A stretch of 57,489 bases of DNA, from positions 1 through 57,489 of the IMG/VR virus record IMGVR_UViG_3300031839_001226; one strand, written 5' to 3'. Below the pieces are notes generated by a model. It saw only the letters and a program-made list of their open reading frames with translations, made no database searches and had not been told where the DNA came from. How positions within the stretch are numbered: position 1 is the stretch's first letter; every line of letters starts with the position of its first letter. Positions 1 to 57,400 of the stretch are shown here, one piece after another. The translations under genes were made by a program, and so were the position numbers. This DNA is from a virus. Taxonomy: Duplodnaviria > Caudoviricetes.

Positions 1-253
1 GCACGAGGCGCAGGAAATTGCTTGGAAGCGGGAAGGCAGCGCTGTATTCAAAGTCTGGCGCCGTCGTGCTTGCGGCAAGCGTCGCGCGCTTGGTAGCACA
101 GTTCCATTGATGCTCCCGAAGGACTTCCTTCAGTACCGGCTCATAGTGCCCATTGGCAAGCCGAGCGGGGCGCGTGCCTTCCTCGATATCGTTGATGATA
201 TCGTCGCCAAGGATGGACAGAGCCGTGTTTGCCACATCTGTTCGTGAGACCAT
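1..253 (-). CDS. Tail tubular protein A / head-tail adaptor (T7 gp11-like), 3'-truncated by window edge
   Basis: Not in the ORF track. Manual translation from ATG 253 (GGAG RBS upstream) gives MVSRTDVANTALSILGDDIINDIEEG...VLREHQWNCATKRATLA...PDFEYSAAFPLPSNFLRL, with the typical 'D-A/C-N-x-AL-x-x-LG', 'H-x-WN' and 'LP-x-x-F/C-LR' motifs; lies downstream of the capsid genes. Confidence 0.8.
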   Translation of the reverse strand, partial: MVSRTDVANTALSILGDDIINDIEEGTRPARLANGHYEPVLKEVLREHQWNCATKRATLAASTTAPDFEYSAAFPLPSNFLRLV

Positions 254-269
254 AGGGACTCCGCCATAG

Positions 270-294
270 AAAAAGGCTGCCCCGGAGAGCAGCC
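270..294 (-). terminator. Rho-independent terminator closing the Cas7-like cassette
   Basis: GGCTGC...GCAGCC stem (275-294) followed by a T-run on the minus strand (AAAAA at 270-274), directly after array 1. Confidence 0.75.
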
Positions 295-300
295 CTTCGT

Positions 301-380
301 GCCTTGTTTAGTGATGCTACGTCAGGTGAAGTGACGTGGAGCCATGCAGCGCAAAGTGCTGTTGCGCGTTGTGTCGCGAT
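301..380 (-). ncRNA. Pentamer-periodic array 1 (putative gapped guide RNA)
   Basis: + strand GCCTT GTTTA GTGAT GCTAC GTCAG GTGAA GTGAC GTGGA GCCAT GCAGC GCAAA GTGCT GTTGC GCGTT GTGTC GCGAT: 16/16 units begin G-Y. Starts right after the stop codon of 383..874. Confidence 0.85.
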
Positions 381-382
381 GA

Positions 383-874
383 TTATACCTTGAATGCTTC
401 CAGCGTCTTCGCGAGAGGCAACTGAGCGCCAGCCTTCGCGACTTGCTCTTCCAGAGACTTCACGCGGCCCGGCGACATGATTGAAGCAATTGCCCCAAAC
501 CCGCTGAGAGCCGCGTTGTGCTTTACCTTCAAGTCGTTTGGAAGCTTGTCGAATTCCTGTACGCACGTCAGACGCTTGACCGCGCGCTTTGCCTTACGGC
601 GGATGCCTTCGCGCGCATGCTCGGCGGTGTTCACCACTTCGATATCGTTCATGCGCTGGTAGCCGACACCACGCACATTGGCGAATGCTACCCCTTCACC
701 CTCCAGCCGATGAAGTGCTGACTGGAGGTTGGAACAGGCGCCTTCCACTTTCCTTCCGAGCAGTTCTGTCATCTGCTGAAACGAAACCACTTCACTCACC
801 GCCACCTTCTTGAGGCGATCGTACAGCATCCTGGTATCGATGCTCATTTCAAAGAGGGTCTTCTTGTCCGTCAT
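383..874 (-). CDS. Accessory protein of the Cas7-like cassette, probable N-terminal winged-helix domain
   Basis: ATG 874 with AAGGA RBS (885-889), 163 aa. Helix-turn-helix then 'FANVRGVGY' wing motif, basic helical C-terminus. The longer ORF-track start runs through the repeat arrays. Confidence 0.7.
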   Translation of the reverse strand: MTDKKTLFEMSIDTRMLYDRLKKVAVSEVVSFQQMTELLGRKVEGACSNLQSALHRLEGEGVAFANVRGVGYQRMNDIEVVNTAEHAREGIRRKAKRAVKRLTCVQEFDKLPNDLKVKHNAALSGFGAIASIMSPGRVKSLEEQVAKAGAQLPLAKTLEAFKV

Positions 875-884
875 CGGTGTTTGA

Positions 885-964
885 TCCTTGTCTTGACCTG
901 TCGCGTCTAGCCCGGCAATGCCCAGCCGAAAGCTGCGGTGCCTAGTAGGGCCGTGGGAAGCGAC
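885..964 (-). ncRNA. Pentamer-periodic array 2 (putative gapped guide RNA)
   Basis: + strand TCCTT GTCTT GACCT GTCGC GTCTA GCCCG GCAAT GCCCA GCCGA AAGCT GCGGT GCCTA GTAGG GCCGT GGGAA GCGAC: G at every 5th base in 14 of 15 units from 890. Confidence 0.8.
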
Positions 965-977
965 AAATGAAAATGAT

Positions 978-1055
978 GGAACCTTGTCTTGCTTTGCCTC
1001 GCACGGTGTTGTCATGCCGTGTGGTGCGAAGCCGAGCCGGGTCGAGCCGAACTCG
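978..1055 (-). ncRNA. Pentamer-periodic array 3 (putative gapped guide RNA)
   Basis: + strand from 981: ACCTT GTCTT GCTTT GCCTC GCACG GTGTT GTCAT GCCGT GTGGT GCGAA GCCGA GCCGG GTCGA GCCGA ACTCG: 15/15 begin R-Y, 13 consecutive G-Y. Confidence 0.85.
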
Positions 1056-1060
1056 ATATA

Positions 1061-1636
1061 CTACGCGGCCATCTGCTGCTCGGACCAGTTCACCCGGTCA
1101 ACAGCATAACGACCATAAAAGCCACCATTCTCAGGACGGAACCGCCCGATACCGATGAAATTTCCAGCCTCCTTCAAGTGAGCCTCAAACACGTCCGGCG
1201 TGATCGTTTCGTCCAGAATGTAGAACGTCACGTCGCCAGACCATTCACGGATGACGGGGAACTTGCGCTTCACGCGCTTGCCGCCGCCAGCCTTGCCGTC
1301 CGATGGGACAAAGAACACTTCGCCCGGAACGTTTTCCTTCTTGTCCGGCAGGATCAGCCCGTCAGTGACGAGGACGCCGGCCTTGAAGTGTTTCGTGTAA
1401 GTCGCCTTGCCTCGACCCTTGATCTGCATCGACAGGAACCGCGCGGCGGTCTCCAGCGATTTCTTGAACGCCATCGGCGGGATAAACACGTGCCCGTCGT
1501 CGGTTGTGCTCAGGCGTTCCGCCCAAGTCCTCATTTCGTAGTCGTCAGCCGCTTCCTTCTCGCGCTTCGGCGTGTCGTGATAGCGGGACTGCGAATACGG
1601 AGCTACGCTCCGGAGCGATGCAACTGCAATTCTCAT
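1061..1636 (-). CDS. Stand-alone Cas7/RAMP-superfamily-like protein (Vipr-like)
   Basis: ATG 1636 with GGAAGGA RBS, 191 aa. N-terminal strand 'IAVASLRSVAPY', 'GHVFIPPMAFKKSL' (cf. Cas7/Csm3 IPGSSxKG motif), C-terminal Gly-rich loop 'GNFIGIGRFRPENGGFYGRY'. Confidence 0.75.
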   Translation of the reverse strand: MRIAVASLRSVAPYSQSRYHDTPKREKEAADDYEMRTWAERLSTTDDGHVFIPPMAFKKSLETAARFLSMQIKGRGKATYTKHFKAGVLVTDGLILPDKKENVPGEVFFVPSDGKAGGGKRVKRKFPVIREWSGDVTFYILDETITPDVFEAHLKEAGNFIGIGRFRPENGGFYGRYAVDRVNWSEQQMAA

Positions 1637-1656
1637 AAGCAACTGTCCTTCCGTTA

Positions 1657-1739
1657 GGAACCATGTCTTGCCAAGCTACGCGCGGACGTGAGTTGTCGTG
1701 CCCTTTCACGCGTTGTCGTGCTTCGATGGAAGCAGTTGC
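1657..1739 (-). ncRNA. Pentamer-periodic array 4 (putative gapped guide RNA, in the 5' leader)
   Basis: + strand from 1660: ACCAT GTCTT GCCAA GCTAC GCGCG GACGT GAGTT GTCGT GCCCT TTCAC GCGTT GTCGT GCTTC GATGG AAGCA GTTGC. Same GGAACCWTGTCTTGC end as array 3. Confidence 0.8.
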
Positions 1740-1791
1740 TTTATCTTCCTTTTTGTGCGAGTTTGCAAGAGGTTTCGATAGTTTTTTTATC

Positions 1792-1845
1792 ATGGACGAT
1801 ATGGAAATCTACGGAACGTAGTGGAACACAACGGACAAGGACGGA
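1792..1845 (+). repeat. 10-bp-phased RYGGA repeats upstream of the XRE gene
   Basis: ATGGA 1801, ACGGA 1811, GTGGA 1821, ACGGA 1831, ACGGA 1841 (plus ATGGA 1792). Confidence 0.6.
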
Positions 1846-1848
1846 AAG

Positions 1849-2139
1849 ATGTCATTGGCGCTTGCCCCGACATACAAACCTGTGGAAATTGCGCCTGTGT
1901 TGACAGGTTCTCAGATTCGAGCGGCCCGCGCGCTCCTCAAATGGTCAGGCCAAGACCTGGCTGCCCGTTGTGGCGTCTCGTATCCCGCGATCCAGCGCGC
2001 TGAGAAGGCCGACGATATGCCGAACATGCAGGCGCGGAACCTTGCCGCAATCAAAGCCGCGCTAGAACGCGGCGGCGTACAATTTCTGGACGGCCCATAT
2101 TCCGGTGATGGCGGGCCAGGAGTCAGGCTTCGCGGCTAG
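1849..2139 (+). CDS. XRE-family HTH transcriptional regulator
   Basis: 'QIRAARALLKWSGQDLAARCGVSYPAIQRAE...ALERGGVQF...GPGVRL', a typical alphaproteobacterial XRE; divergent from the Cas7-like gene. Confidence 0.85.
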   Translation: MSLALAPTYKPVEIAPVLTGSQIRAARALLKWSGQDLAARCGVSYPAIQRAEKADDMPNMQARNLAAIKAALERGGVQFLDGPYSGDGGPGVRLRG

Positions 2140-2311
2140 CCGCGCTGAACTCCTTACCGACAGCAATCAGTTTGTCCCGTGCCCGTTTAAGGTTCGCTAA
2201 TTCCTCTTCCATGTTCTCAATGTCGTCACATATGCGTGTGAGCTTCTTCTGCATGATGAGCCGGATACAGGACCGCCAGTCATCCACATTGAGAAAATCG
2301 AAGTCAGTCAT
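2123..2311 (-). CDS. Hypothetical coiled-coil protein
   Basis: 62-aa ORF in late-operon orientation, GAGG RBS. Confidence 0.55.
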   Translation of the reverse strand: MTDFDFLNVDDWRSCIRLIMQKKLTRICDDIENMEEELANLKRARDKLIAVGKEFSAASREA

Positions 2312-2317
2312 GAGCCC

Positions 2318-2992
2318 TCACAGATATTCCGCATAGCATGCTTCCCATGCCTTGCGTCCGATGTGCTTGAACCGCAAAAGCGTGTCCGCGTAGCACTCGC
2401 CGCCGATCGCTCGCCAGCGCCGGCAGAACATGAAATCCTCGCCCCACAGGCTTGGCTCGCATCCTTCATCCGCGACGATCTCGGGAAGGAACAGCGCGCA
2501 GTTTTCCTTGTGGGCCAGACGGTCATCCACATAACGCAAATGCCGGTAGTGTTCGGTCATCTTCTCCGCACAGTTGCGGGAGATATGCAAGAAGCCACCG
2601 GGCAGCATGGCGACCTTCAAGAGCCCGTTATCGTCCGGCTCTTCGCCCTTGATGCGTTTCACGGGAAACCGTATGTCATCCTGCTTTAGAGGATAGACGC
2701 CGCCACAGACATCCTTGCCGTGGCTGACTAGGCGAAGGATCGCGTCATCCTCCCACCATATGTCGTCGTCAAGCATGACGAGATCGGTGCACTCGGAATG
2801 CAGGAAGTCGGCAACGAAGCTATCCCTTGCATGGGAGATCAGCGAGTTGCCGACCGTAAATCTGTACTCGCATTGCCAGCCGACGCGGCGTATTCCGTCC
2901 GCTGCCTGACGAAGGCAATGGAACGTTTCGATGTCAGCCTTTCCAGAGAAAGTCGGGCAGGCGATGTAGATGTTCCGCGCCGGCTGAGCCAC
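2318..2992 (-). CDS. Glycosyltransferase-like protein (GT-A fold)
   Basis: 'IYIACPTF', 'ISHARD', 'LVMLDDD' (DxD), 'GGVYP', 'GEDFMFCRRW', 'HIG' motifs. Confidence 0.7.
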   Translation of the reverse strand: MAQPARNIYIACPTFSGKADIETFHCLRQAADGIRRVGWQCEYRFTVGNSLISHARDSFVADFLHSECTDLVMLDDDIWWEDDAILRLVSHGKDVCGGVYPLKQDDIRFPVKRIKGEEPDDNGLLKVAMLPGGFLHISRNCAEKMTEHYRHLRYVDDRLAHKENCALFLPEIVADEGCEPSLWGEDFMFCRRWRAIGGECYADTLLRFKHIGRKAWEACYAEYL

Positions 2993-2994
2993 TG

Positions 2995-3240
2995 TTACGC
3001 CGCCTGCGTAGCGTGCGGATGATCCGGATACTTCACCCGTTCGTCGTAGTGCGGGATATCGGTGTGCTGCTCATGCTCCAGCTTGCACAGGGCATAGGCG
3101 GTTTCCCACGCCTGATCCGGATTGTCGAACTCACCCCGCTCGGATACGGAACCAGCGCCCGCGCCCTCTTCGACATAGCGCGTGATGATGTAGCGATCCA
3201 CTTTGCGAACGCGGTATTCCAGTTTGGTGATGACACCCAT
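2995..3240 (-). CDS. Hypothetical protein
   Basis: 81-aa ORF with AGGAAG RBS. Confidence 0.6.
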   Translation of the reverse strand: MGVITKLEYRVRKVDRYIITRYVEEGAGAGSVSERGEFDNPDQAWETAYALCKLEHEQHTDIPHYDERVKYPDHPHATQAA

Positions 3241-3351: not shown

Positions 3352-3858
3352 TCAATCGATCGCGTATTCAATCTCCGCAGTGATCGTGCCGGCGCCGGAC
3401 GAGAGGTGTACGGCTCCTTCGATCACCACCTTGACATCCAGAAGCCCGCCGGGATCGACGGTCTGGCCGTTGACGTATTCCCACAGGCGCTTGCCCCAGT
3501 TGGCCTTGTCAGCAATGAATTCCTTCGTGCCGGCCGTGGAAGCGACGATGCCCGTGTTCAGCGCGTCAGCGTCATCCGTCATGGATTGCTTCGTGCTGGT
3601 CTTGTAGATGCCGATGCCCAGCGCGGCAGTGGTCGCACCCAGCGCATCATGCGCCAGTTTCGAGCCGCCGAAGATGCGGGCATTGGACGGAAGACGCGCC
3701 ATGAGATAGGTGGAGGTCGCGGAGTCGGCAGCGCCGGTTTCCACAGTCTCAACCCACTTGCGCGTGCGGCCACCACCCTCACCGGGGTCGGCAAGGACGG
3801 CAGGCGTGGACGTGAGGCTCGACATGATGCGCGAGCCGTAGCTGGTAACGATAGCCAT
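3352..3858 (-). CDS. Capsid cement/decoration-like virion protein
   Basis: Immediately downstream of the capsid gene, strong AGGAG RBS, beta-rich with 'ARLPSNARI'. Confidence 0.55.
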   Translation of the reverse strand: MAIVTSYGSRIMSSLTSTPAVLADPGEGGGRTRKWVETVETGAADSATSTYLMARLPSNARIFGGSKLAHDALGATTAALGIGIYKTSTKQSMTDDADALNTGIVASTAGTKEFIADKANWGKRLWEYVNGQTVDPGGLLDVKVVIEGAVHLSSGAGTITAEIEYAID

Positions 3859-3882
3859 TGTGGTTCTCCTTTCTGGCTAGGC

Positions 3883-4794
3883 TCAGATGTCAGTCGTCGG
3901 CGAGCCGCCCGGATCGCACTCGATGTATCCGACGCGCTTCTCTTCCATGCGGGTCGCCCCCACGGACATCTTCGCGTAGACCTGAGTTGCGTAGGACTTG
4001 TCGTCTCGCTCGGAGATGCGAGCCATCATGTCCGCGCCGAGAGCGAGAAGCATGCCCGACCTGGTGTAGAACGGCACCTTGTCGTCGCTGTTGCTGTCGA
4101 GGCCGATACGATTGCACGGAACGAGCGTGCAGCCGCCGACCATCGACACCTTGCCCGACACGAGCGGCAGGGCCGCGTTGTAGTCGCCGGACACGACACG
4201 CTCATCTTTGAGCAGAGACGAAATCTGGCGGGCGTTGACGACAACGAAGACTTCCTCGTCGGGGTCAACGTCGTTTGAACCGAGGAGCTTGCGCGCTTCG
4301 ATGAGCTTCGCCAGATTGAGTCCGGTATCGGCGGCGGAGACGCCAGGCCACACGGTCTGCACGTCAACGACCATGTTCGTGTCGAACGCGGTCTGGGTGG
4401 AGCCGCTTTCCCCGGTGTATGCGGTCGCATCGATGGCCGCGAGGATTTCGTCATCGATCGCACGACCGAGGGACATCATCGCAGCTTCGGTGTAGACCGA
4501 GGCCGGGTCGAGAAGCATGCGGATTTTGTCCTGGTCATCGATCAGGTCCGCCCACTCATAGTCGAACACCGACACGCGCCTGCGGGCGTGCGGGGTGTCC
4601 ATGCGAGGCGTGTCGCCATGCCGCGAGGTGCGGCGCTGTGCGGTGACGGCACCGATCTGGTCGAAGAATGCGTTCTTGCCAGTGATGGTCTCGGTGCGGA
4701 CAGTGCCGCGAAGCTTGCTGCCCTTCTGCTGTACGAGGTGGTAGACGTTTGCCTTGTACTGCTCGACAAACGCCGTCGTGATCTGGACAGACAT
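3883..4794 (-). CDS. Major capsid protein
   Basis: 'MSVQITTAFVEQY...VQQKGSKLR', 'DTPHARRRV', 'DKIRML', 'GATRMEEKRV' motifs of podoviral capsid family; synteny. Confidence 0.9.
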   Translation of the reverse strand: MSVQITTAFVEQYKANVYHLVQQKGSKLRGTVRTETITGKNAFFDQIGAVTAQRRTSRHGDTPRMDTPHARRRVSVFDYEWADLIDDQDKIRMLLDPASVYTEAAMMSLGRAIDDEILAAIDATAYTGESGSTQTAFDTNMVVDVQTVWPGVSAADTGLNLAKLIEARKLLGSNDVDPDEEVFVVVNARQISSLLKDERVVSGDYNAALPLVSGKVSMVGGCTLVPCNRIGLDSNSDDKVPFYTRSGMLLALGADMMARISERDDKSYATQVYAKMSVGATRMEEKRVGYIECDPGGSPTTDI

Positions 4795-4930
4795 GTCCTT
4801 ATCCTTTCAACGGTGAATTTTTGGGATGGTTTGTCGAACGTTGTCCGGCGAGCCGGGCGTTACATGCCCAACGTGGGCGGCGGCATGGCTACATGCTTTC
4901 GTGCGGGGCCTTGCGGCTTGTCCGCTAATG

Positions 4931-6589: not shown

Positions 6590-6879
6590 ATATCCGCGCC
6601 TTCCGCCTGTGACGCGACCTGTCTCATGACTTGCGTCTTGAACCTGTGTTCGGGATTGACCGTGAGCGCCACGATCTCATTTCCTACGGATCGCTGACCT
6701 TCGTTGAACAAGGTGATGTTCATGTTCCCGTCAGGCGGCATGGAGTCGCGGAACACATGGCAAAAATCGAGGATGTACCCGAATAGCCGTTCGCCTTCTT
6801 CCGTGCCGGCTACGATCTTGGCGTCAATGGCAGCTTGCCGACGACGCTCTTCCCACTTTGCCTGTTCAGCCTTCGTCAT
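6586..6879 (-). CDS. Bbp19-like protein
   Basis: 'GTEEGER', 'FNEGQRSVG' motif, directly after the portal. Confidence 0.7.
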   Translation of the reverse strand: MTKAEQAKWEERRRQAAIDAKIVAGTEEGERLFGYILDFCHVFRDSMPPDGNMNITLFNEGQRSVGNEIVALTVNPEHRFKTQVMRQVASQAEGADI

Positions 6880-8486
6880 GCGGCCTGCTGTCCTGTCGCA
6901 ACTGCCTCACTGAAGGCTTTCGATCCTTGCCCTGCCGCCTGATATGCCTTGGCGGCTTCCGCTGCCATGCCGACCATGCCGGGCGGGATTGGTGGTTCCT
7001 GTACATCGTCTTCATCAATGATGAGCGCAGGATCGACGCTCATTTCCTTGGCCGACCATTCAACGAAGCCTTCTCCGTCAAAGCGTTTAGCCATAGCCTC
7101 CGCAACACTTGGAATAGACTCGGCAGCACCGCCGACCATTGCCATCCAGCGCATCGCCAGTTCGACTTTCTGGCCTCTCTGTGCCAGTGCGATAGGCGAG
7201 GTATATTCCACCGTCCATTCCACGCCGTCGAGTTCTTCCGGCTGCTCGGGAAGACGCTCCAGACGCGATAGAATGCCGAACACGCGAGCGATCAACGGCC
7301 CGAGCAATTCGCTTTCCATGCGCCCCAGGATCGGGCCTAGAAGCCTCATGCGCTCCTGTGTGCGCTGCATGACTTCGGTCGCGGTCATGTCCGCGTCGCC
7401 GACCATCTGCAACTGATCCACGAAGAACGTGCTCAGGACGCGATTGCGAAGGTCTTGGAGGAAGTCCAACCCTACCGCCGGCTGTACCCCCGTCATCATG
7501 GGGGATATCTCACGCTCTCCGCGATAGAAGTTCAGGCCGCCGGGAATGGTGCGGACTGGGCCGATGTGCCCTTCATCCGGAACATTGAGCGGAGGACGAA
7601 CCGCAAGCTGGGAAGCTATAGCCACATCCTTCATGACCGAATGCAGCATCTTGCAATCGGGAAGCGCAGACATGCCAGGGGAACGGCCATAGGTCTCGCC
7701 CGTCACCTTGTACCAGCGAGGAACCGCGTAGGGAAACTCTTCGAACCCGCTTTCGCTCAAGGTCTCCTTGGACTTATAATCCAGATAGACCGACGCGAAC
7801 GGCATGTTCATCGCGTCTTTCTTCCCGCTCTCCCGCTCTTCGCGAGGGCATACGGCATGAAGGATTTCCACCGGCTCGGTGAACTTGCCTTCCGCGTACT
7901 TGTCCTTGACCTCCTTGGGGCACTTGTCGCCCCATTTCTGAAAGCACTGGCGCACGGACATCTTGAACTTGCGGATGACGGTGTCGACCACCCCCTCGGC
8001 GTTCTCATCGATCATGCACTCGGCAAGCGAGCGCGTCTGGAACAGGAGCTTGTCTTCCTTCGTCTTGCCGATAAACATGATGCCGGTTCCGAACGCGGCA
8101 TAGTCCATGTAGAGTTCGTGCAGATGCGTCGTGATCGAGGACGACGGCGAGTGCATTTCGGAAAACAGCCGGTCTTCTACAGCCGATAGATACTCTCGGA
8201 CATTATCGTCTTCGGCATCCTCGCCAATGATGCGCAGCGAAAACCATCGACTGGCCGGGTTCGTCGCCATGCCATGCAGACCGGCCGCCAGCAGTTCCAA
8301 TGCCTGGAGCGGCGTGCCATCATATATCTTCGTCGTGCGCTTTTCGCCAACCGTGCGATCGCCCACGAAGCCCATGCGCCGGGTATAGATGTTCTCTGCG
8401 ATCTCCTCCCAATGGGATTCGAACGTGCCACGCTGGCCTTTCAGCTCATCGTAGCGCTGGCAGAGTTGGATGGCGTCATAGGCCAT
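6876..8486 (-). CDS. Portal protein (head-to-tail connector, T7 gp8/BPP-1 type)
   Basis: 536 aa; 'WF', 'AFGTG', 'FPYAVPRW', 'GETYGRSP', 'MTATEV', 'EYTSPIA' motifs. Confidence 0.95.
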   Translation of the reverse strand: MAYDAIQLCQRYDELKGQRGTFESHWEEIAENIYTRRMGFVGDRTVGEKRTTKIYDGTPLQALELLAAGLHGMATNPASRWFSLRIIGEDAEDDNVREYLSAVEDRLFSEMHSPSSSITTHLHELYMDYAAFGTGIMFIGKTKEDKLLFQTRSLAECMIDENAEGVVDTVIRKFKMSVRQCFQKWGDKCPKEVKDKYAEGKFTEPVEILHAVCPREERESGKKDAMNMPFASVYLDYKSKETLSESGFEEFPYAVPRWYKVTGETYGRSPGMSALPDCKMLHSVMKDVAIASQLAVRPPLNVPDEGHIGPVRTIPGGLNFYRGEREISPMMTGVQPAVGLDFLQDLRNRVLSTFFVDQLQMVGDADMTATEVMQRTQERMRLLGPILGRMESELLGPLIARVFGILSRLERLPEQPEELDGVEWTVEYTSPIALAQRGQKVELAMRWMAMVGGAAESIPSVAEAMAKRFDGEGFVEWSAKEMSVDPALIIDEDDVQEPPIPPGMVGMAAEAAKAYQAAGQGSKAFSEAVATGQQAA

Positions 8487-33894: not shown

Positions 33895-34349
33895 GCTGAC
33901 AACGAAACTGCTAATGCGCGCTGCCAGATTAGCTGAGCAGAAAGCCAGGATACAGGATGATCTGTCCGAGGCGTTCGTGGAGCGATACGGCACCACATAC
34001 TCTGACGTTGATGCCGATGGCATCATTGACATCCTAGACTATGGCGGCGGCGATATTGACCTCGCTCAATGCGACGCGATCATGACTGAAGCTGGCCATC
34101 CGCCTCTCAGTAGACGCGCCCTCTCTGAGGGAGAAGGCAAATGAGCATCATCATCACGAACGTCTCGCGCCACGAAGGCAACGCTCGCATCAGCGAGTAC
34201 ATCGTGCAGGTCGATGACAGCCCGATCATCGCCAGGTTCAAGCATTGGCGCCGTGATGGGCTTGCTGAGTGCCTACGCCTTGCGGCTACCGCTGTCGATG
34301 AGGCAGAGGCCCGCCGTCGCCCCCTCCCCCGCCAGGAGGACGACGGAAG

Positions 34350-34700
34350 ATGAGCCAGTCGCTACTCTCCCCGGCCGACGCCGCGCGCGTCCTGTGCATT
34401 TCCGACACGCAGCTCCGGGCGCTGACTTGCGCTGGGTCCATCCGGTACATCAATATCGGCTTAGGGGCGAAGCGCGAGACCCGCCGTTACCACCCGGACG
34501 ATCTCGCAGCATTTCAGGAGGCACGGGGATGTCAGTCTACAAACGTCCGGGCGCCGAAGTCTACAGCTACGACTTCCGGTGGCGTGGTAATCGATTTTCG
34601 GGGTCAACCGAATGCAAAACCAAGCGGGAAGCCGAACGCTTCGAGGAAGCCGAGCGGACCCGCGTCAAGTCGGCAGGGATCGACCGAAGCAAACCAATGA
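34350..34700 (+). CDS. xis: Excisionase-like HTH protein
   Basis: 'LLSPADAARVLCIS...LR.L...G.I.YINIG.G.KR..RRY...DL..F', overlapping int. Confidence 0.75.
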   Translation: MSQSLLSPADAARVLCISDTQLRALTCAGSIRYINIGLGAKRETRRYHPDDLAAFQEARGCQSTNVRAPKSTATTSGGVVIDFRGQPNAKPSGKPNASRKPSGPASSRQGSTEANQ

Positions 34701-35623
34701 CGTTCGCGGTCGCGTCAACGCTCTACTGGAACGAGGTCGGCCAGTTTCATCGAAATTCATCCGACACAAAACGCGCTCTTGGCTGGCTGCAAACCAACGT
34801 CGGGATGAACAAGCTCGTATCAGCCATTTCCGACGCCGAGATTGCCCGCCTCGTGGCGAAGCGACGCGGGGACGGTGTTTCCAACGCCACGGTAAATCGA
34901 AGCGTCTGCGAGCCATTGCGGGCCGTTCTGAAGCGGGCGGGGAAAACATGGAAGCAGTCGGTGCAAGACATTGACTGGAGAAGCCACGTCCTTAACGAAT
35001 CCCAGGAGCGGGTTCGGGAAGCTACGCCGGGGGAAGAGACGAAGCTTATAGCAGCGATGCGGCCCGACTACCGGCCGGTCGTGCAGTTCGCCATCCTGAC
35101 AGGCTGCCGGATGAACGAGATACTTGGGCTGAAATGGGCGAAGGTGGATTTCTTCAACCGCCAGTTCACCGTGTTCGGGAAGGGAGACAAATCCCGCACG
35201 ATCCCGATGACGCAAGTGGTCTTCGATCTGTTGACGGCCTTGCGCAAGCATGATGGCCCAGACGTGTTTACCTACCAGGCGACGAAGACGCGCGACGGCA
35301 AGGTGCGCGGCTATCGCTACCCGATCACCGAAAACGGGTTCAAGACGCAGTGGCGCCGGGTGAAGCGGGATTCAGGCGTAGAGGACTTCCGGTTCCACGA
35401 CACGAGGCATACTGCGGCGACGCGACTTGTGCGCGCGACGGGCAACCTCAAGCTCGCTCAGCGGCTTCTCGGACACACGGAAATCGCGACGACATCAAGA
35501 TATGCACATGTCACAGACGCAGACCTCCGCGCAGGGATGGAGGCCGCCAATCCCACGGGAAGTGCCACGAACGTTGCTTCACCCGATGATAAGGCTTTGA
35601 GAAATAACGGTAATGTGGTATGA
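34529..35623 (+). CDS. int: Tyrosine integrase
   Basis: ATG 34529 after AGGAGG; 'TGCR..E', 'GKG.K', 'FHDTRH', 'LGH', 'RYAH'. Confidence 0.95.
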   Translation: MSVYKRPGAEVYSYDFRWRGNRFSGSTECKTKREAERFEEAERTRVKSAGIDRSKPMTFAVASTLYWNEVGQFHRNSSDTKRALGWLQTNVGMNKLVSAISDAEIARLVAKRRGDGVSNATVNRSVCEPLRAVLKRAGKTWKQSVQDIDWRSHVLNESQERVREATPGEETKLIAAMRPDYRPVVQFAILTGCRMNEILGLKWAKVDFFNRQFTVFGKGDKSRTIPMTQVVFDLLTALRKHDGPDVFTYQATKTRDGKVRGYRYPITENGFKTQWRRVKRDSGVEDFRFHDTRHTAATRLVRATGNLKLAQRLLGHTEIATTSRYAHVTDADLRAGMEAANPTGSATNVASPDDKALRNNGNVV

Positions 35624-52516: not shown

Positions 52517-54474
52517 CAGATGATACAGTTTACCGCAGCGCGCAAAGCCTCGCCATACGCAGCGCCGTTCTCAAGGTTGGATTGAGCCTGGTCGAGTGCG
52601 TCGATATCGTCCTGCGTCAGCCGACCTTCGGCTTTCAACTGGTCGATCTCCGCGCTTTCAAGGAAGTCGCCCGTTTCAGGATCGACACGGTACTGACTGG
52701 ATAGGGCTTTGTAGTCTTCCGTCTTGGCGATGGAACGCTCGGCTTCAGCGCGCCCTTCGGGAATAGGTTCGGGGCGCCCTACGCTTGTGTCGATTGCCGC
52801 TCTTTGATCTTCGCCAGCACGAGCATATTGCCTGCGATCCGCCGCATTTGCTCCGCGTCTTCCTTGTCCGCGCCTTCGGCCTTGCGGTTCAAAAAGTCGG
52901 CCTCCTGTCGCAGGCGTTCCGGCGTCTTCGAAGAAAGGGATGTCTGCGGCGTCATTGGCGAACCCTCCGTCGCGCTCGGACATAGCGTCGTAGAATTGAC
53001 GATAGTCCTCTTCGATCGCGCGTTCAAGCGCCGTCACCCGATCATCGCCATCCGCCATGTACCCGGCCGCACGGCGGATCGTGTCGTCATCAACCCTGTG
53101 GTCGATCTTCAATTCGTCAAGCGCGGTATCAACCTCATCGAGAACACGCTTGTACTCTTCGCTGTTTCTCAGCTGCGCATCGAATTCCGCCTGGTCGAAC
53201 ATGCGACCGCCATCAAGGCGCGGGGAATAGGTTGCCCGTCCCGCCGCTTCGTCGCTGAGAAGCCTCAGAAGATCATCCGGCGTTGACTTCGCCACCGCTT
53301 CATCAGGGCCGTAGATATGGTCGAAATAACCGGCTTCAGCAGCAGCCTCCCGCGCGTACTCGATGCTCAAGCCATTGCGACGAACAAGAGCACCACTGCC
53401 AGGAATGAACTTGCGCGAAAGCCCCATGGACCGCAGCGCGCCCGCTTCATCGACAATGCCGCCCTCACCGGCAAGAAACTGCATGAGATTGACCGGACGA
53501 AGCGGGGCAGCGTCAACAGGAGCATCCGTGCGCGCCAACCGCGCGAGTTGTTCCGCCCGCGTTTCGTTTATGACCCGCTCGACGCCCGCCATCCCATTTG
53601 GCGACAGGCTGACATCCTCACCCCTCACAACCCCGTCAATGGCCTCGTTCAAGGCTATGCGGGCTTCCTGAGTGGTGCGCAGCGTCGAGAGACGTTCGGA
53701 TGCCTGCGCTTCGATCCTCGCGTCCCTGCGTGCTCCTATGGCCCCGGAAATCGTACCGAACGCGGAGCCGATCAATGCAGCCGTGGCGATCTCGGATATC
53801 GTAGCCTGCCATGATACGTCATCCCCGTATCGACCGCGCTGTTCCCGTGTCGCCAATCCTGCAATGGCGGTGTTCGCCGCAGCATCGCCAGCACCAGTCA
53901 GCGTCCTGCCGAGTACCCGCCCTGCTCTTGCGACCGCAGCGGCCTCGACAACCGGGCCAGCAACCGGAATGTAGTTGATCGGATCGACCGCCTGCCCCGC
54001 CAGATTGCCAACGAAAGACGTGAACGGGCGCTTTTGCGCGTAGTACTCACGAACCTTCTTAGCATCGTGATATGCGGCAAGGGCAGCGGCGCGATCTTCC
54101 GTCATCGCAGCATCCCACGGGACATCCTTGCGATAGTAGGCCGATGCCTTCCATGCGTTCTCATCGAGCGACTTGGAAGGTTCATCCGTCAGGCGGCGAA
54201 TGGTCGAACCGATTGCCCCGGCAATTCCTCCGGGAAGGACCGTTTCGAACGTGCGCTTTACCTGCTCCCCGGTATCGAGTTGCGACGTATCGCCGGCCGG
54301 AATGTCCGCCCCACGAATAGCCGTGCCGAGACCAAAGCTTTCCAGTGTCCCGCCCTTGGCCTGATCCCAGAACGTCGCGCCCATGTTCATCGGCTGGTTG
54401 AGAGCCGAGTCGAACATCTCCGCACGAGATGCACCGCGAAACGACGGGCCGGGGCGAAAGCCGTAAATGCTCAC
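52516..54474 (-). CDS. Internal virion protein
   Basis: 652 aa, 'DPINYIP', Gly/Ala-rich; coupled. Confidence 0.7.
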   Translation of the reverse strand: MSIYGFRPGPSFRGASRAEMFDSALNQPMNMGATFWDQAKGGTLESFGLGTAIRGADIPAGDTSQLDTGEQVKRTFETVLPGGIAGAIGSTIRRLTDEPSKSLDENAWKASAYYRKDVPWDAAMTEDRAAALAAYHDAKKVREYYAQKRPFTSFVGNLAGQAVDPINYIPVAGPVVEAAAVARAGRVLGRTLTGAGDAAANTAIAGLATREQRGRYGDDVSWQATISEIATAALIGSAFGTISGAIGARRDARIEAQASERLSTLRTTQEARIALNEAIDGVVRGEDVSLSPNGMAGVERVINETRAEQLARLARTDAPVDAAPLRPVNLMQFLAGEGGIVDEAGALRSMGLSRKFIPGSGALVRRNGLSIEYAREAAAEAGYFDHIYGPDEAVAKSTPDDLLRLLSDEAAGRATYSPRLDGGRMFDQAEFDAQLRNSEEYKRVLDEVDTALDELKIDHRVDDDTIRRAAGYMADGDDRVTALERAIEEDYRQFYDAMSERDGGFANDAADIPFFEDAGTPATGGRLFEPQGRRRGQGRRGANAADRRQYARAGEDQRAAIDTSVGRPEPIPEGRAEAERSIAKTEDYKALSSQYRVDPETGDFLESAEIDQLKAEGRLTQDDIDALDQAQSNLENGAAYGEALRAAVNCII

Positions 54475-57400
54475 TGTCCCTGCATCCTTCGCTGGAACGC
54501 ATCGAACGCATCATCGGTCAATGGCGCTTCCGGTGCGCGCGCATCCCTGTCGCGACGGTTCGGATCAGGCTGGACAGTCAAGACATCATCCATGGTGAAG
54601 ATGATCGGGTTTCCGTTCTCATCGGCAACCGCCGCCCCGGTGTAGGGATCGAAGAACACGAACCCGTCTCCCGAATTGCGGAAGTAGCCTTCCGACAGGA
54701 CGTTGCGGGTGTAGTTGGCAGTCACCGAATCCATGATTGCGCGCGTGCCATCGGCAGCCGGCGCATCCTCCGGAACGACCATGATCCTCTCAAGTGCCGA
54801 CTGGACCTGTGGCATCAATCGATCCAGCCCGGTCAGAACCTCATCTTCATCCTGGTCCATCGGAATGAGAATGCGGGCCTGATCCTCATTGACTGGCTTG
54901 ACATCGCCATAGAGGTCTTTTGCCACCCCCGAAATCGCCGCTTCTTCGGTCTCTCCGCTCATCATGCGAAGAATGACCGAGTTCATCATGAGCTTGCTAT
55001 CGCGCTCGGCCCGGACGTAGTTCTCTGCCGTGCCGTCCGTGATGCCGTAGTAGATATCCCCGATCTGCCCTTCATCCATCAATGATGCCTGAATAGAGGC
55101 GCTGAGCATCGGCTTCGTCACGTCCCCCGGCAGTTTGCCCGGAAGCTTGTCGGGATCGATCATCGCAGCCTGGAACAGGCGTTGCGCCGCCCCATTGTCG
55201 CCACGGGTCAAGGCGGAAATCGCACCTTCCGTCATGTCCGGAAGGCCGGCATCCACCAACTGTTCAAAGATCGCCCTTTGCTGATCCGGATCGCCCGTCG
55301 CCATGACGAGCCCGGCAACCGTGGCAAGGCGCTCCTTCTCGGGAAGGTCAACGTCCTTGAACTGGCCTACCGCATTCTCGGCAACGTCCTTGGGCAGCAA
55401 CTGCATATTGCGGATGCCGAGCTGCTGTTGTGCTGTGGCGGTTGCCGCAAACGCTTCTTGGAACCCGCCGTTCTCCATACTCGCATCCTGCCATGCCTGC
55501 TCGACGTGGGGATAGGTATTGCGAACATAGGCGGCTGGATCGGCCTCTCTGGTCTTGATCGTTTCCTGCGCGGCCTTGGATAGCGCATCGTACCTTGCCG
55601 TCTCGACTGCTGCATTGTTGCCCGATGAACGCGGCATGGCGTCTTCCACCAACGCCGTGATTTCGTCAGTCGGCATCGTCCGCATATCGAAAGCGGAACG
55701 GCTTACGTCTATCTCAGCCTGAAACGCCTTGTACCGTTCGGCTCCTTCGTTTGCCCCATAGGCTGCGACGAACTGCTGTCCGGTCGGAAGCATTCCGTCA
55801 TATGAGCCGGTATTGCGGATGGCTACAGGCGCATTCGTCATTGCAATATCGATTGCCGCCCGATCCTGTGCACTGCGCTCGTTCAGTGACGATTGCGCGG
55901 TGTTCATGAGGGAGCGGATTTGATCGATGCTCAGACCCGCATATGCCGGATTACCGGCAAACTTCATGGCCTTGGCAGGACCGCGCTTGGCGGGATTGCC
56001 CCAACCTTCCGCCGCCGCCGCTGCAAAATCGGGATCGACGGTACGGCTCGACTTGTCCGGTCCCCATATCGCCTGTGCGCCGCCGCCGATATGAACGCCC
56101 CACTCGTAATGCCCCATGCCAGTGAAACCCATGGCGGCGGCGTTGCGGAAGAACTGGCGATATAGTTCCTTGTTCTCGCTGGGCTTGACTTCCTTCCCGT
56201 CCACGACAAGCACGATGTCAGCCGCATTCCCGTGGTCGTGACGCGCCGATCCTGTGCGCTTTCCGCCCGAGCCCTTGGCATCCTGCCCGCCTGAGACAAC
56301 CTTGATCGCAATCCGCGAATCCGTAGCCGATGCAGCACGGGCGAGACCGTCATACACCCACTGCTGGACCGGCTTGTCCCTGATCTTGCCGGGTGTCGCA
56401 TCGATGAACTGGACCTGTGGAACCGTATCGCCCGACTTGTCGAGGACCTTCTTCTTGTATTCTCGGGTTTCCTTTGGAAGAACGCTATCGTCACGCCCGG
56501 ACGCAATCCATTCGTCCGCTCGGGAAGGCCCACCATTGTACGCAACGAGTGCGGCTTCCGCGTCCCCGTCATACCGGACAAGCATCTTGTCCATGTAGTG
56601 CCGTCCATAACGACGCCCGGTCGCTTCGTCCTTCAGGTACGCCTTGACTTCTTCGTCACTACCGCCAGCCGGGAAGTTCGGATCATTGAGTTCCGTCGCG
56701 ATCTCGCGCGCCGTTGCGGGCATCACCTGCATGATGCCGGACGCACCCTTGGGAGATTCCGCGTTCGGGTCGTTCGTGCTCTCCACCGTCTCCATCGCGG
56801 CATAGATGTTGCCGGTAGGAGCTGCGACTTCCGCCATGAACTGTTCGGGCGAGAATTCCGCCAGGTTCTTCGCGCGGGCCAGTTGCAGGTTCGTGGTGAT
56901 TGCCGCCTTGGCGTCCGCTTCCTGCTCAGGCGTCATCCACTGTTTGGCGCCTTCGAAATCGTCCATTGCACGGCGGACAACAGCATCATACTGTGTCGGA
57001 TCGGCGAAGATCGTCTGAGCATGCGCGTTCATTGCTTCCGCGAAATCAGTTGACCGCTTGGCAATCTCGCTCTTTGCCTGAAACCCGGCGGACCTTTGCG
57101 TCAGGGTAACGTCGTAATTCGTCGCCCATTCATCGTACATGGCCCGTGCGCGCTCGGAAGGGGCCGACGCAAGCCGCTGCTCCTTGGTCTGGTGGAACTG
57201 GCTGCGAATGCCTTCAACGTAGCCCTGTGCCCCGTCTGTGGCCGAACGCTGCGCTTCCTGCTCAGCCGTGATCATTCCAAGCGCGGTTTCCGCCCGCGCC
57301 TTGGTGAACCACGTATCGTCCTGCGTCTGGCGGATTTTCTGCTCACGCGCGTACAGATCATCCCCAAGCCCGGAGACGGCATTGCCGAGCCCCTGCAAGG

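What the first reader, a model, noticed from the sequence alone, without database searches (positions are those of the whole stretch)
212..380. Array 1 decodes, as a gapped code, to a non-self version of the adjacent tail gene's N-terminus
Seen: the last two bases of each + strand pentamer from 311 to 380 are AT AC AG AA AC GA AT GC AA CT GC TT TC AT. Read as NNx codons these give M-T-S/R-K/N-T-D/E-I-A-N/K-L-A-L/F-S-I/M. The neighbouring tail-adaptor gene begins ATG GTC TCA CGA ACA GAT GTG GCA AAC ACG GCT CTG TCC ATC (MVSRTDVANTALSI). That is 8/14 dinucleotides and 18/28 bases identical, starting exactly at the start codon, with up to 10/14 identical residues. Two mismatches are synonymous (Ser AGN vs TCA, Leu TTR vs CTG) and two are conservative (K/R, I/V). 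The binomial chance is about 1e-5 for one pre-chosen site, but about one such hit is expected genome-wide, so the weight comes from the location, codon phase and protein-level conservation. Including the third variable base would give ATT and Lys instead of ATG and Asn, which suggests every third target base is skipped. Inference: the RNA is antisense to the coding strand of this gene in a related competing phage, ignores wobble positions, and spares the host phage's own divergent allele, much like a homing element that targets the locus next to its insertion site.
Basis: partly seen in the sequence, partly recalled or inferred. Interest (0 to 1): 0.95.

Follow-up and report, generated by a model that had tools for sequence, protein, structure and literature searches.

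The report
Phage VIPR guide RNA beside tail gene
The pentamer array belongs to a phage-borne VIPR system, a recently described RNA-guided gene silencer that reads two bases and skips one, and its decoded guide looks like the start of a tail gene of a rival phage, although no real target was found.

Summary
The 14 + strand pentamers at 311-380 and the 18/28 (8/14 dinucleotide) match to codons 1-14 of the neighbouring tail gene are in the sequence.

The cassette at about 255-1760 is a VIPR system, described in three 2026 bioRxiv preprints. It has a Vipr RAMP protein (1636->1061), a winged-helix-like accessory protein (877->383) and four minus-strand guide RNAs. Each guide is built of [xRC]+NN pentamers followed by a conserved tail. 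The Vipr assignment rests on hhalign to phage SUSP1 Vipr (probability 97.3%) and on Foldseek matches to Cas7/Csm3.

The specific target claim is plausible but unproven.
- **For:** only the rule-conform decoding matches, at offset 0 of the adjacent gene. Shuffles reach that score at that site in 89 of 200,000 cases. The decoded guide fits a profile of 62 distant tail-tubular-A gene starts better than the phage's own gene does.
- **Against:** 18/28 is what any such guide finds somewhere in 57 kb. No target with at least 80% match was found in any collection. No such tendency appears among 124 related guides.

This is a new member of a known kind, of moderate interest.

The parts
299..383 (-). 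vrRNA-1 repeat tract. It has 17 pentamers in the register [xRC]+NN. The last units before the tail (299-310) resemble the conserved 3' end of the other three arrays.
   Evidence: The register was set by the invariant C and by homology to the GGC+NN arrays of relatives.
266..298 (-). 3' tail of vrRNA-1: a 12-pair hairpin followed by a U run, which looks like an intrinsic terminator.
   Evidence: Fold of 390->256: MFE -42.9 kcal/mol, z -2.33, hairpin present in both the MFE and the centroid structure. The consensus scan did not list it.
212..253 (-). First 14 codons of the tail tubular protein A gene. The gene spans 253->2 and is cut by the contig end. This is the stretch that the decoded vrRNA-1 resembles (18/28).
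   Evidence: phrog_394 E 4.7e-27. tblastn hits are annotated as tail tubular A.
383..877 (-). vap-like accessory gene (164 aa): an N-terminal winged-helix-like domain plus a helical C-terminal part.
   Evidence: A homologue lies next to vipr in 45 of 75 loci. AF2 pLDDT 93.0. The Foldseek top hits are winged-helix DNA-binding regulators, but weak (best E 1.3e-2, none at or below 1e-3). No Pfam hit.
888..962 (-). vrRNA-2a repeat tract (15 units). It ends in the conserved AAGAC-AAGG motif, which overlaps the ribosome-binding site of vap.
984..1048 (-). vrRNA-2b repeat tract (13 units), followed by a tail that begins AAGGTTCC, as in relatives.
1061..1636 (-). vipr gene: a 191-aa RAMP protein with a C-terminal glycine-rich loop.
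   Evidence: phrog_4652. AF2 pLDDT 95.3. Foldseek: type VII Cas7 E 1.2e-8, then Csm3 and Cmr4. hhalign to the phiSUSP1 195-aa protein: probability 97.3%, E 2.6e-11.
1663..1727 (-). vrRNA-3 repeat tract (13 units), upstream of vipr.
1849..2139 (+). Divergent HTH_3 regulator. It travels with the cassette only in the closest relatives.
   Evidence: Pfam HTH_3 E 5.4e-6. A homologue is present in 2 of 75 loci, L002 and L004.

Best explanation
The region from about 255 to 1760 is a VIPR (Viral Interference Programmable Repeat) system carried by a temperate, podovirus-like marine phage.

By homology with the SUSP1 system, Vipr protomers would line up along each vrRNA, one per pentamer. Each protomer would hold the three handle bases, here xRC rather than GGY, and present the two variable bases. 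The filament would then bind double-stranded DNA wherever successive NN pairs match with one target base skipped between them, and it would block transcription. The winged-helix-like Vap protein would assist.

The tail-proximal end of the guide would sit on the ATG and the skipped bases would fall on wobble positions. The phage's own allele differs at 10 of the 28 read positions and so escapes.

Shown here: the homology, the anatomy, the strand and the statistics. Inferred: RNA expression, RNP formation, the skip rule in this clade, and the identity of the target. I put VIPR membership at about 0.9 and the target assignment at about 0.5.
For: **VIPR membership**
- The Vipr family profile (42 sequences) aligns end to end with the 195-aa protein of phage phiSUSP1 that lies between GGT+NN arrays (hhalign probability 97.3%, E 2.6e-11).
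- The AF2 model (pLDDT 95.3) matches Cas7 of type VII and Csm3 of type III systems (E 1.2e-8 to 1e-4, 119 hits at E 0.001 or below).
- The window holds four arrays of 13-17 pentamers with an invariant C, each ending in a shared tail motif.
- 72 of 75 homologous loci carry such arrays.
- In near-identical proviruses the arrays differ only at NN positions or are swapped whole.
- Terminators and promoter-like boxes in L061, and the hairpin after array 1, place the RNA on the vipr strand.

**Target**
- Only the rule-conform decoding matches, at offset 0 of the adjacent gene.
- Shuffles reach 18/28 at that site in 89 of 200,000 cases, and other guides do so in 0 of 1,010 windows.
- At any of 368 mechanical ORF starts, shuffles of vrRNA-1 reach it in 5 of 300 cases.
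- I built a position matrix from 62 distinct tail-tubular-A gene starts, each at most 49% identical in protein to the window's gene. Against it the decoded guide scores 7.2 bits, more than the own gene (2.3). Shuffles match or beat that in 32 of 100,000 cases, and the best of 1,010 other-guide windows scores -8.7.
- Where guide and own gene differ, the guide often carries the family's common state. ATN (Ile) at codon 7 occurs in 60 of 62 homologues, C at the second base of codon 2 in 62 of 62, AGY-Ser in 18 of 62 and TT-Leu in 34 of 62.
- There is a published precedent: solo vrRNAs that target the early codons of vipr and score lower on self than on non-self (10.64898/2026.10.15.759431, Results section read).
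Against: - No target was found. The full 14-unit pattern has 0 exact matches in viral, metagenome and genome collections.
- The 10-unit core has 0 matches in viral contigs and 2 in genomes. Both lie inside unrelated ORFs, and about one chance hit was expected by my own rough estimate from the collection's 596 billion bases.
- A relaxed pattern gave 1 metagenome hit, in a 32-codon ORF of an AT-rich contig.
- The best of 88 homologue starts scores 18/28, no better than self.
- 18/28 is the ordinary window-wide maximum for such a guide (70.5% of shuffles), and a skip of 0 gives 20/28 somewhere in the window.
- The test restricted to the 10 positions where guide and own gene differ is weak (P = 0.078). 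Four of the six non-identical units differ at both bases, as random units would.
- Among 124 related guides there is no tendency to resemble the start of the next gene (mean 0.350 against 0.349 for shuffles).
- The three other guides of the window have only chance-level self matches, and their decoded patterns have 0 exact hits in viral contigs.
- The skip rule has been tested experimentally only in GGY-type systems. The handle here is xRC.
Confidence: 0.5

Rival explanations
1. The cassette is a VIPR system, but the likeness of vrRNA-1 to the adjacent tail gene start is a coincidence. The real target of vrRNA-1 is some other element (a prophage, a satellite or a rival VIPR locus) that is not in the collections searched.
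For: - 18/28 is the expected window-wide maximum for such a guide.
- Any of the four guides, when shuffled, reaches a fraction of 0.643 or more at some ORF start in 28 of 300 trials.
- There is no family-wide tendency across 124 guides.
- No homologue start exceeds 18/28.
- The conditional test gives only P = 0.078.
- The mismatched units look random: 4 of 6 differ at both bases.
- In the published systems most targets are satellites, prophage regulators or other VIPR loci, not homologues of the phage's own structural genes.
Against: - A match at exactly the ATG of the gene next to the array, in codon phase and with the guide's end on the start codon, has a per-site chance of about 4.5e-4.
- The decoded guide fits an independent family profile better than the own gene does.
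- Only the rule-conform decoding gives the match.
Confidence: 0.4
2. vrRNA-1 acts on the phage's own tail gene. Imperfect pairing (64%) would give weak, tunable repression of the late tail operon just downstream of the cassette.
For: The guide lies about 60 nt upstream of the gene and is aligned to its ATG. VIPR represses transcription when aimed at promoter-proximal sites.
Against: Perturbing NN pairing abolished silencing in the published reporter assays. No natural self hit reached 80% in their controls. Ten of the 28 positions are mismatched here. No such pattern appears in 124 related guides.
Confidence: 0.04
3. The arrays are not guides. They are periodic protein-binding tracts in the 5' and 3' untranslated regions of the operon, where a filament or ring binds 5 nt per subunit as TRAP does on the trp leader, and they control translation or RNA stability. 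The NN positions would simply be unconstrained.
For: Arrays 2a and 3 end on or next to the ribosome-binding sites of vap and vipr. In L044 long arrays run straight into Shine-Dalgarno sequences. This was my own first reading (text).
Against: The protein is a homologue of SUSP1 Vipr, for which guide function was shown experimentally. L061 has ten stand-alone array genes, each with promoter-like and terminator elements and with no ORF to regulate. Guides are swapped whole between near-identical proviruses.
Confidence: 0.03

Closest known systems
Type II VIPR system of Escherichia phage SUSP1 (bioRxiv 10.64898/2026.04.26.720920; cryo-EM in 10.64898/2026.04.26.720927, abstract only read)
   Same: - A two-gene core: vipr of about 190 aa, then a small DNA-binding-type accessory gene.
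- Guide RNAs on the vipr strand, both upstream and downstream of the genes.
- Pentamers with three handle bases and two hypervariable bases, in 9-16-unit tracts, each followed by a tail.
- Carried by a phage.
- The Vipr proteins align over their full length, including the C-terminal G-loop.
   Different: - The handle here is xRC (only C invariant, second base A or G), not GGY.
- The accessory protein shows no sequence similarity to the 146-aa SUSP1 gene next to vipr (BLASTP E = 30).
- A divergent HTH gene accompanies the cassette in the closest relatives.
- The tail of vrRNA-1 is a plain terminator hairpin, not the pseudoknot described for SUSP1.
- The Vipr proteins share only about 20% identity.
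- Expression, RNP formation and the skip rule have not been tested for this clade.
Solo and VIPR-borne vrRNAs that target rivals' vipr genes or vrRNAs (bioRxiv 10.64898/2026.10.15.759431; abstract, Results section 8, Methods 17 and 26 read)
   Same: The guides are aimed at the early codons of a gene that the carrier phage (or its ancestor) also has. Self-match scores are lower than non-self scores, so the carrier avoids autoimmunity. The codon periodicity of the target is exploited.
   Different: There the targets are VIPR components or satellite genes, and real targets with identity of 0.8 or more were found. Here the putative target is a structural gene (tail tubular A) lying directly beside the guide, and no real target sequence is known.
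Cas7 backbone of class 1 CRISPR effectors (type VII Cas7, type III Csm3/Cmr4)
   Same: Both have the RAMP fold with a glycine-rich loop (Foldseek E 1.2e-8, TM 0.56). Both form a protein filament on a guide RNA that interrupts pairing periodically.
   Different: There is no CRISPR array, no other cas genes and no spacer acquisition module. The periodicity is 5 nt with sequence-specific handle bases, rather than 6 nt on an arbitrary spacer. The guide information is discontinuous.
TRAP and the trp leader of Bacillus (recalled from general knowledge, not from a call)
   Same: The RNA tract has a conserved triplet every 5 nt or so, which would suit one protein subunit per repeat.
   Different: This is an analogy only. 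The protein here has a RAMP fold and does not resemble TRAP. I considered this function first and dropped it (see the rival explanations).

Membership tests
VIPR system | A Vipr protein: a small stand-alone RAMP with a G-loop, homologous to described Vipr proteins | tested here: met
   hhalign of the 42-sequence profile against the phiSUSP1 195-aa protein: probability 97.3%, E 2.6e-11, residues 1-183 aligned to 1-191. Foldseek matches Cas7/Csm3. Invariant G158, G162, R167, G172 and G175 at the C-terminus.
VIPR system | vrRNA arrays: tandem pentamers with a conserved trinucleotide handle and two hypervariable bases, flanking vipr | tested here: met
   The window holds four arrays of 13-17 units. 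72 of 75 homologous loci have a period-5 run of 11 or more. Between near-identical proviruses the differences lie at NN positions, or whole guides are exchanged.
VIPR system | Handle consensus GGY (or NNNGG / YNNNG / NNNNG, as listed in the paper's Methods) | tested here: inconclusive
   The window's handle is xRC on the vipr strand. That fits YNNNG only if G is relaxed to R. Relatives have GGC (L018, L005 group) but also CAC (L044), CTC (L061) and AAC (L072), which contain no G. The paper's fig. S17 and its data files could not be seen.
VIPR system | A conserved 3' tail after the repeat tract | tested here: met
   All four arrays end in AAGAC/AAAC-AAGG. The tail of 2b (AAGGTTCC...) matches those of L018 and the L005 group. 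The vrRNA-1 tail folds into a 12-pair hairpin.
VIPR system | An adjacent vap accessory gene with a predicted DNA-interacting fold | tested here: inconclusive
   A gene is conserved next to vipr in 45 of 75 loci. The model has pLDDT 93.0. The Foldseek hits are nearly all winged-helix regulators, but the best E is 1.3e-2. There is no sequence similarity to the SUSP1 neighbour gene.
VIPR system | Encoded by a phage or provirus | tested here: met
   The window is an IMG/VR virus record. It carries a portal-type connector, a major head protein, tail proteins and an integrase.
VIPR system | vrRNAs are expressed as RNAs of about 100 nt and co-purify with Vipr | not testable with these tools
   No RNA run holding the stretch was listed; this is reported only as something tried.
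VIPR system | A natural target with at least 80% NN identity under the 1-nt skip rule, and none in the own genome | tested here: inconclusive
   The best own-genome fractions are 0.64, 0.65, 0.68 and 0.73, all below 0.8. No external target was found, but the collection scans accept exact patterns only and may withhold close relatives. A 1.2-Mb local search gave 57 hits, against 31-46 for shuffles, and none was convincing.
CRISPR-Cas class 1 | A CRISPR repeat-spacer array and further cas genes next to the RAMP | tested here: not met
   TRF finds only one 14-nt repeat in 1-3000. Rfam has no hit. The neighbouring genes are vap, an HTH gene and phage structural genes.

The most novel reading that the evidence does not exclude
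The guide and the gene it resembles are neighbours for a reason. A VIPR cassette sits directly upstream of an "immune" allele of the very gene whose foreign alleles it silences. In mixed infections the cassette and the linked resistant allele would then spread together by recombination, an RNA-guided counterpart of homing-endonuclease and immune-allele linkage. Alternatively, new guides may be born from the neighbouring gene.

Separately, Vipr clades with handles that contain no G (CAC, CTC, AAC) would be mutually orthogonal guide systems.
Probability: 0.15. Interest if true: 0.75.

Novelty: new member of a known kind. Interest (0 to 1): 0.45.

Why it matters
VIPR was described only in 2026, from NCBI records and mainly from GGY-type systems of enterobacterial and Pseudomonas phages.

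This window adds a large marine and environmental clade. The family has 1,193 cluster representatives at 50% identity with E at or below 0.001. In PHROGs it is listed only as "unknown function" (phrog_4652). Its guide handle is relaxed or altered, which bears on how Vipr reads its RNA and on building orthogonal programmable repressors.

If the target assignment holds, it would be the first case of a guide placed beside the self allele of its own target. That would suggest linkage between VIPR cassettes and immune alleles. If it does not hold, the case shows how easily a 14-unit gapped guide finds a 64% match by chance.

Tried and rejected
**First idea.** I first read the arrays as TRAP-like periodic protein-binding tracts on mRNA. 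I dropped this after the RAMP fold, the SUSP1 homology and the papers.

Rfam gave 0 hits, tRNA search gave none and TRF does not detect the arrays. Pfam has nothing for Vipr, Vap or the tail fragment.

**Searches for close relatives.**
- DNA similarity of 1-2400 to GenBank phages: none.
- Vipr by tblastn in GenBank phages: 1 record, LESphi2, 30% identity.
- Close relatives of the tail gene: 1 locus from the single-protein search.
- phrog_394 in 0 of 5 records that hold the closest Vipr genes.
- 80 loci obtained from a 4-sequence alignment, all at most 49% identical. None has an array upstream.

**Target searches.**
- Exact patterns of the four decoded guides gave 0 hits.
- Three further hits were judged to be chance.
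- A local search of 133 related guides against 1.2 Mb of window and loci gave, at skip 1, 57 hits against 32, 46 and 31 in three shuffles. Inspection showed low-complexity or partial matches only.
- The best self matches of the other three guides lie in the connector, the integrase and an unknown ORF. Their scores are at chance level.

**Promoter and terminator scan.** It found 0 promoter-like sites in 1-2300 and 4 terminator-like sites, against 2.6 expected. The hairpin after array 1 was not among them. A TTGCAA-17-GATAAA box that I saw by eye upstream of vrRNA-3 fails the scan's rule.

**Sequencing runs.** No RNA holder was listed. Contigs of four DNA runs match at 99% or more with no differences. 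No contig covers 243-346 (X2) or 262-655 (X4), and I draw nothing from that.

**Literature searches.**. One search found the VIPR paper. I have seen 10.64898/2026.10.21.760802 only as a search listing.
Full report
**What is in the sequence.** The window is a complete IMG/VR virus record of 57,489 bases, linear and estimated 80% complete, with 58.3% G+C. From 301 to 385 the + strand has a G at every fifth base for 17 units, each followed by a pyrimidine. Three more arrays of the same kind lie at 890-964, 986-1050 and 1665-1724.

All nearby genes are on the minus strand:
- a tail gene whose ATG is at 253 and which is cut by the contig end (phrog_394, E 4.7e-27);
- a 164-aa gene (877->383);
- a 191-aa gene (1636->1061, phrog_4652, "unknown function", E 1e-11).

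A divergent HTH_3 gene lies at 1849-2139. Read on the minus strand, each array is a run of [xRC]+NN units. Each run ends in AAGAC-AAGG or a close variant. Array 1 is followed by a 12-pair hairpin with a U run.

**The arrays and the 191-aa protein belong together.** A scan of viral contigs gave 75 loci that encode a homologue. Of these, 72 have a run of 11 or more identical bases at period 5, against 3 of 75 at period 4, 23 of 75 at period 6 (codon effect) and 2 of 75 at period 7.

The handle differs between clades. It is GGC in L018 and the L005 group, CAC in L044, CTC in L061 and AAC in L072. L061 has ten array units in series. Each has a TGn-CATAAT box in front and a hairpin plus T-run behind, on the strand of the protein gene, so the arrays are small RNA genes on that strand.

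In eight near-identical proviruses the middle array differs only at NN positions, while the upstream array is replaced wholesale between conserved flanks. The family is large: 1,193 representatives at E 0.001 or below, and 771 at 1e-10 or below.

**What the protein is.** An AlphaFold model from 42 sequences (pLDDT 95.3) matches Cas7 of type VII CRISPR complexes (E 1.2e-8, TM 0.56), followed by Csm3 and Cmr4. A full-text search then found bioRxiv 10.64898/2026.04.26.720920. That preprint describes VIPR systems, which consist of a stand-alone ancestral RAMP (Vipr), an accessory Vap and vrRNAs of 9-16 YNNGG pentamers plus a tail. Only the NN bases pair with double-stranded DNA. One target base is skipped per unit, usually the wobble base. 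The systems are used by phages to repress competitors.

I fetched the type phage phiSUSP1. It has a 195-aa gene flanked by GGT+NN arrays on its own strand. The window's family profile aligns with that protein over its whole length (probability 97.3%, E 2.6e-11), including the C-terminal G-loop.

The 164-aa neighbour is conserved next to vipr in 45 of 75 loci. It models as an N-terminal winged-helix-like domain plus helices (pLDDT 93.0). Its fold matches to winged-helix regulators are weak (best E 1.3e-2), and it shows no sequence likeness to the SUSP1 neighbour gene. The cassette is therefore a VIPR system with a variant handle and a different accessory family.

They correspond to the NN of the GGC+NN arrays of relatives that share the same tail. 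Reading them with one skipped base is the published rule. So the vrRNA would pair with the coding strand of a gene that starts ATx ACx AGx and so on.

**Is the match to the tail gene more than chance?** The arithmetic is right: 18/28. As a score it is ordinary. Only 2 of 114,894 window sites reach it, but shuffled guides reach a window maximum of 18 or more in 70.5% of trials, and a skip of 0 even gives 20 somewhere.

The place is what stands out.
- At that single site, shuffles reach 18 in 89 of 200,000 trials, and 0 of 1,010 windows from other guides do so.
- Of 20 alternative decodings, only the rule-conform one matches, at offset 0.
- At any of 368 mechanical ORF starts, shuffled vrRNA-1 reaches it in 5 of 300 trials. 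Any of the four guides reaches the same fraction in 28 of 300.

I then built an independent test. The data were 86 tail-tubular-A gene starts, 6 from GenBank phages and 80 from IMG/VR, giving 62 distinct 42-mers. Two further GenBank starts were left out because of insertions after codon 2. All are at most 49% identical in protein to the window's gene.

The decoded guide matches the full set of 88 starts (insertion-bearing ones included) as well as the window's own gene does: mean 14.5 against 14.7 of 28. On a position matrix from the 62 distinct starts it scores 7.2 bits, against 2.3 for the own gene. Shuffles reach that in 32 of 100,000 trials. The best of 1,010 other-guide windows scores -8.7. 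Two of 114,894 window sites reach it.

At several positions where guide and own gene differ, the guide carries the family's usual state: Ile at codon 7, C at the second base of codon 2, AGY-Ser and TT-Leu. Restricted to those 10 positions, however, the test gives only P = 0.078.

**Evidence against the target claim.**
- No sequence with a near-perfect match was found. There were 0 exact matches of the full pattern in three collections.
- The 10-unit core gave 0 matches in viral contigs and 2 in genomes. Both lie inside unrelated genes, and about one chance hit was expected by my own rough estimate from the collection's 596 billion bases.
- A relaxed pattern gave 1 hit in metagenomes, in a 32-codon ORF.
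- The maximum over 88 homologue starts is 18/28.
- Across 124 related guides with a downstream ORF, likeness to that ORF's start equals the shuffle level (0.350 against 0.349). The window's guide is simply the top of that list.
- The cassette sits elsewhere in the closest relative, between the portal and scaffold genes of L002, with a quite different guide. None of 5 related records has a phrog_394 gene.
- The other three guides show nothing comparable.

**Weighing.** A coincidence needs a chance of roughly 5e-4 at the adjacent start. Allowing for four guides and a few flanking genes, that is perhaps 5e-3 to 2e-2. The family-profile fit comes on top of that. On the other hand, the generic idea that the guide targets a rival's homologue does not itself predict that the homologue lies next door. 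No target is known, and the family shows no such habit. I put the target assignment near 0.5 and VIPR membership near 0.9.

A later preprint (10.64898/2026.10.15.759431; abstract, Results section 8 and Methods 17 and 26 read) reports vrRNAs that hit the early codons of rivals' vipr genes and score lower on self than on non-self.

**Novelty.** The mechanism and the family are in print: three bioRxiv preprints of 2026, found with the searches. For 10.64898/2026.04.26.720927 I read only the abstract. It reports Vipr filaments that sequester GGY and present NN, and an R-loop triplex.

What this window adds:
- a marine, temperate, podovirus-like host phage, with an integrase, connector, major head and tail genes and DNA in runs of five studies, four of which were laid;
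- an xRC handle, and handles without G in relatives;
- a different accessory family;
- a candidate guide-beside-self-allele arrangement.

I could not see the supplements, so I cannot tell whether this clade is already among the seven published types.

Noticed in passing
L044:3265-3445, 3679-3994, 4581-4907: A relative (Vipr about 50% identical) has CAC+NN arrays of 36, 63 and 65 units. That is far longer than the 9-16 units described for vrRNAs. The arrays run straight into the Shine-Dalgarno sequences of the next genes.
   Followed up: partly
L061:5125-6633: Ten CTC+NN array units lie in series. Each is preceded by a TGn-CATAAT box and followed by the same hairpin plus T-run. The handle contains no G at all.
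   Followed up: partly
L072:1283-1423, 2007-2174, 2670-2825: The arrays have an AAC+NN handle in an AT-rich phage. Across the 133 guides anchored on an invariant C, the handle consensus is CGC in 44, GGC in 36, AAC in 11, AGC in 7, and CAC, ATC and CTC in 6 each. This suggests that the handle co-varies with the Vipr clade.
   Followed up: partly
L005-L010, L047, L062: 3775-4000 and 4557-4680: In eight near-identical proviruses the guide between vipr and vap differs at only one or two NN positions. The upstream guide is exchanged whole between conserved leader and tail (at least four versions).
   Followed up: partly
L002:3509-5240: The closest relative (Vipr 86%, Vap 85%, HTH 79% identical) carries the same three-gene cassette between portal and scaffold/capsid genes rather than beside a tail gene. 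The cassette therefore moves between phage backbones. The HTH gene is found in only 2 of 75 loci.
   Followed up: partly
window 34214-35620 (+), 6879-8486 (-), 3883-4794 (-), 54474-57398 (-): Integrase (phrog_1, E 6e-58), connector (phrog_332), major head protein (phrog_3437) and a 975-aa internal-virion/lysozyme-type protein. Together they indicate a temperate, podovirus-like phage. DNA 99% or more identical occurs in seawater, marine and estuary metagenome runs of four studies.
   Followed up: partly
window 34790-34821 (+): The best self match of vrRNA-3 is 16/22 (0.73), in codon phase inside the integrase gene. Shuffles reach that score in 15% of trials, so I treat it as chance.
   Followed up: yes
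window 301-385, 890-1050, 1665-1724: Tandem Repeats Finder and Rfam 15 both miss these arrays completely. A simple same-base-at-period-5 run test finds them cleanly.
   Followed up: yes
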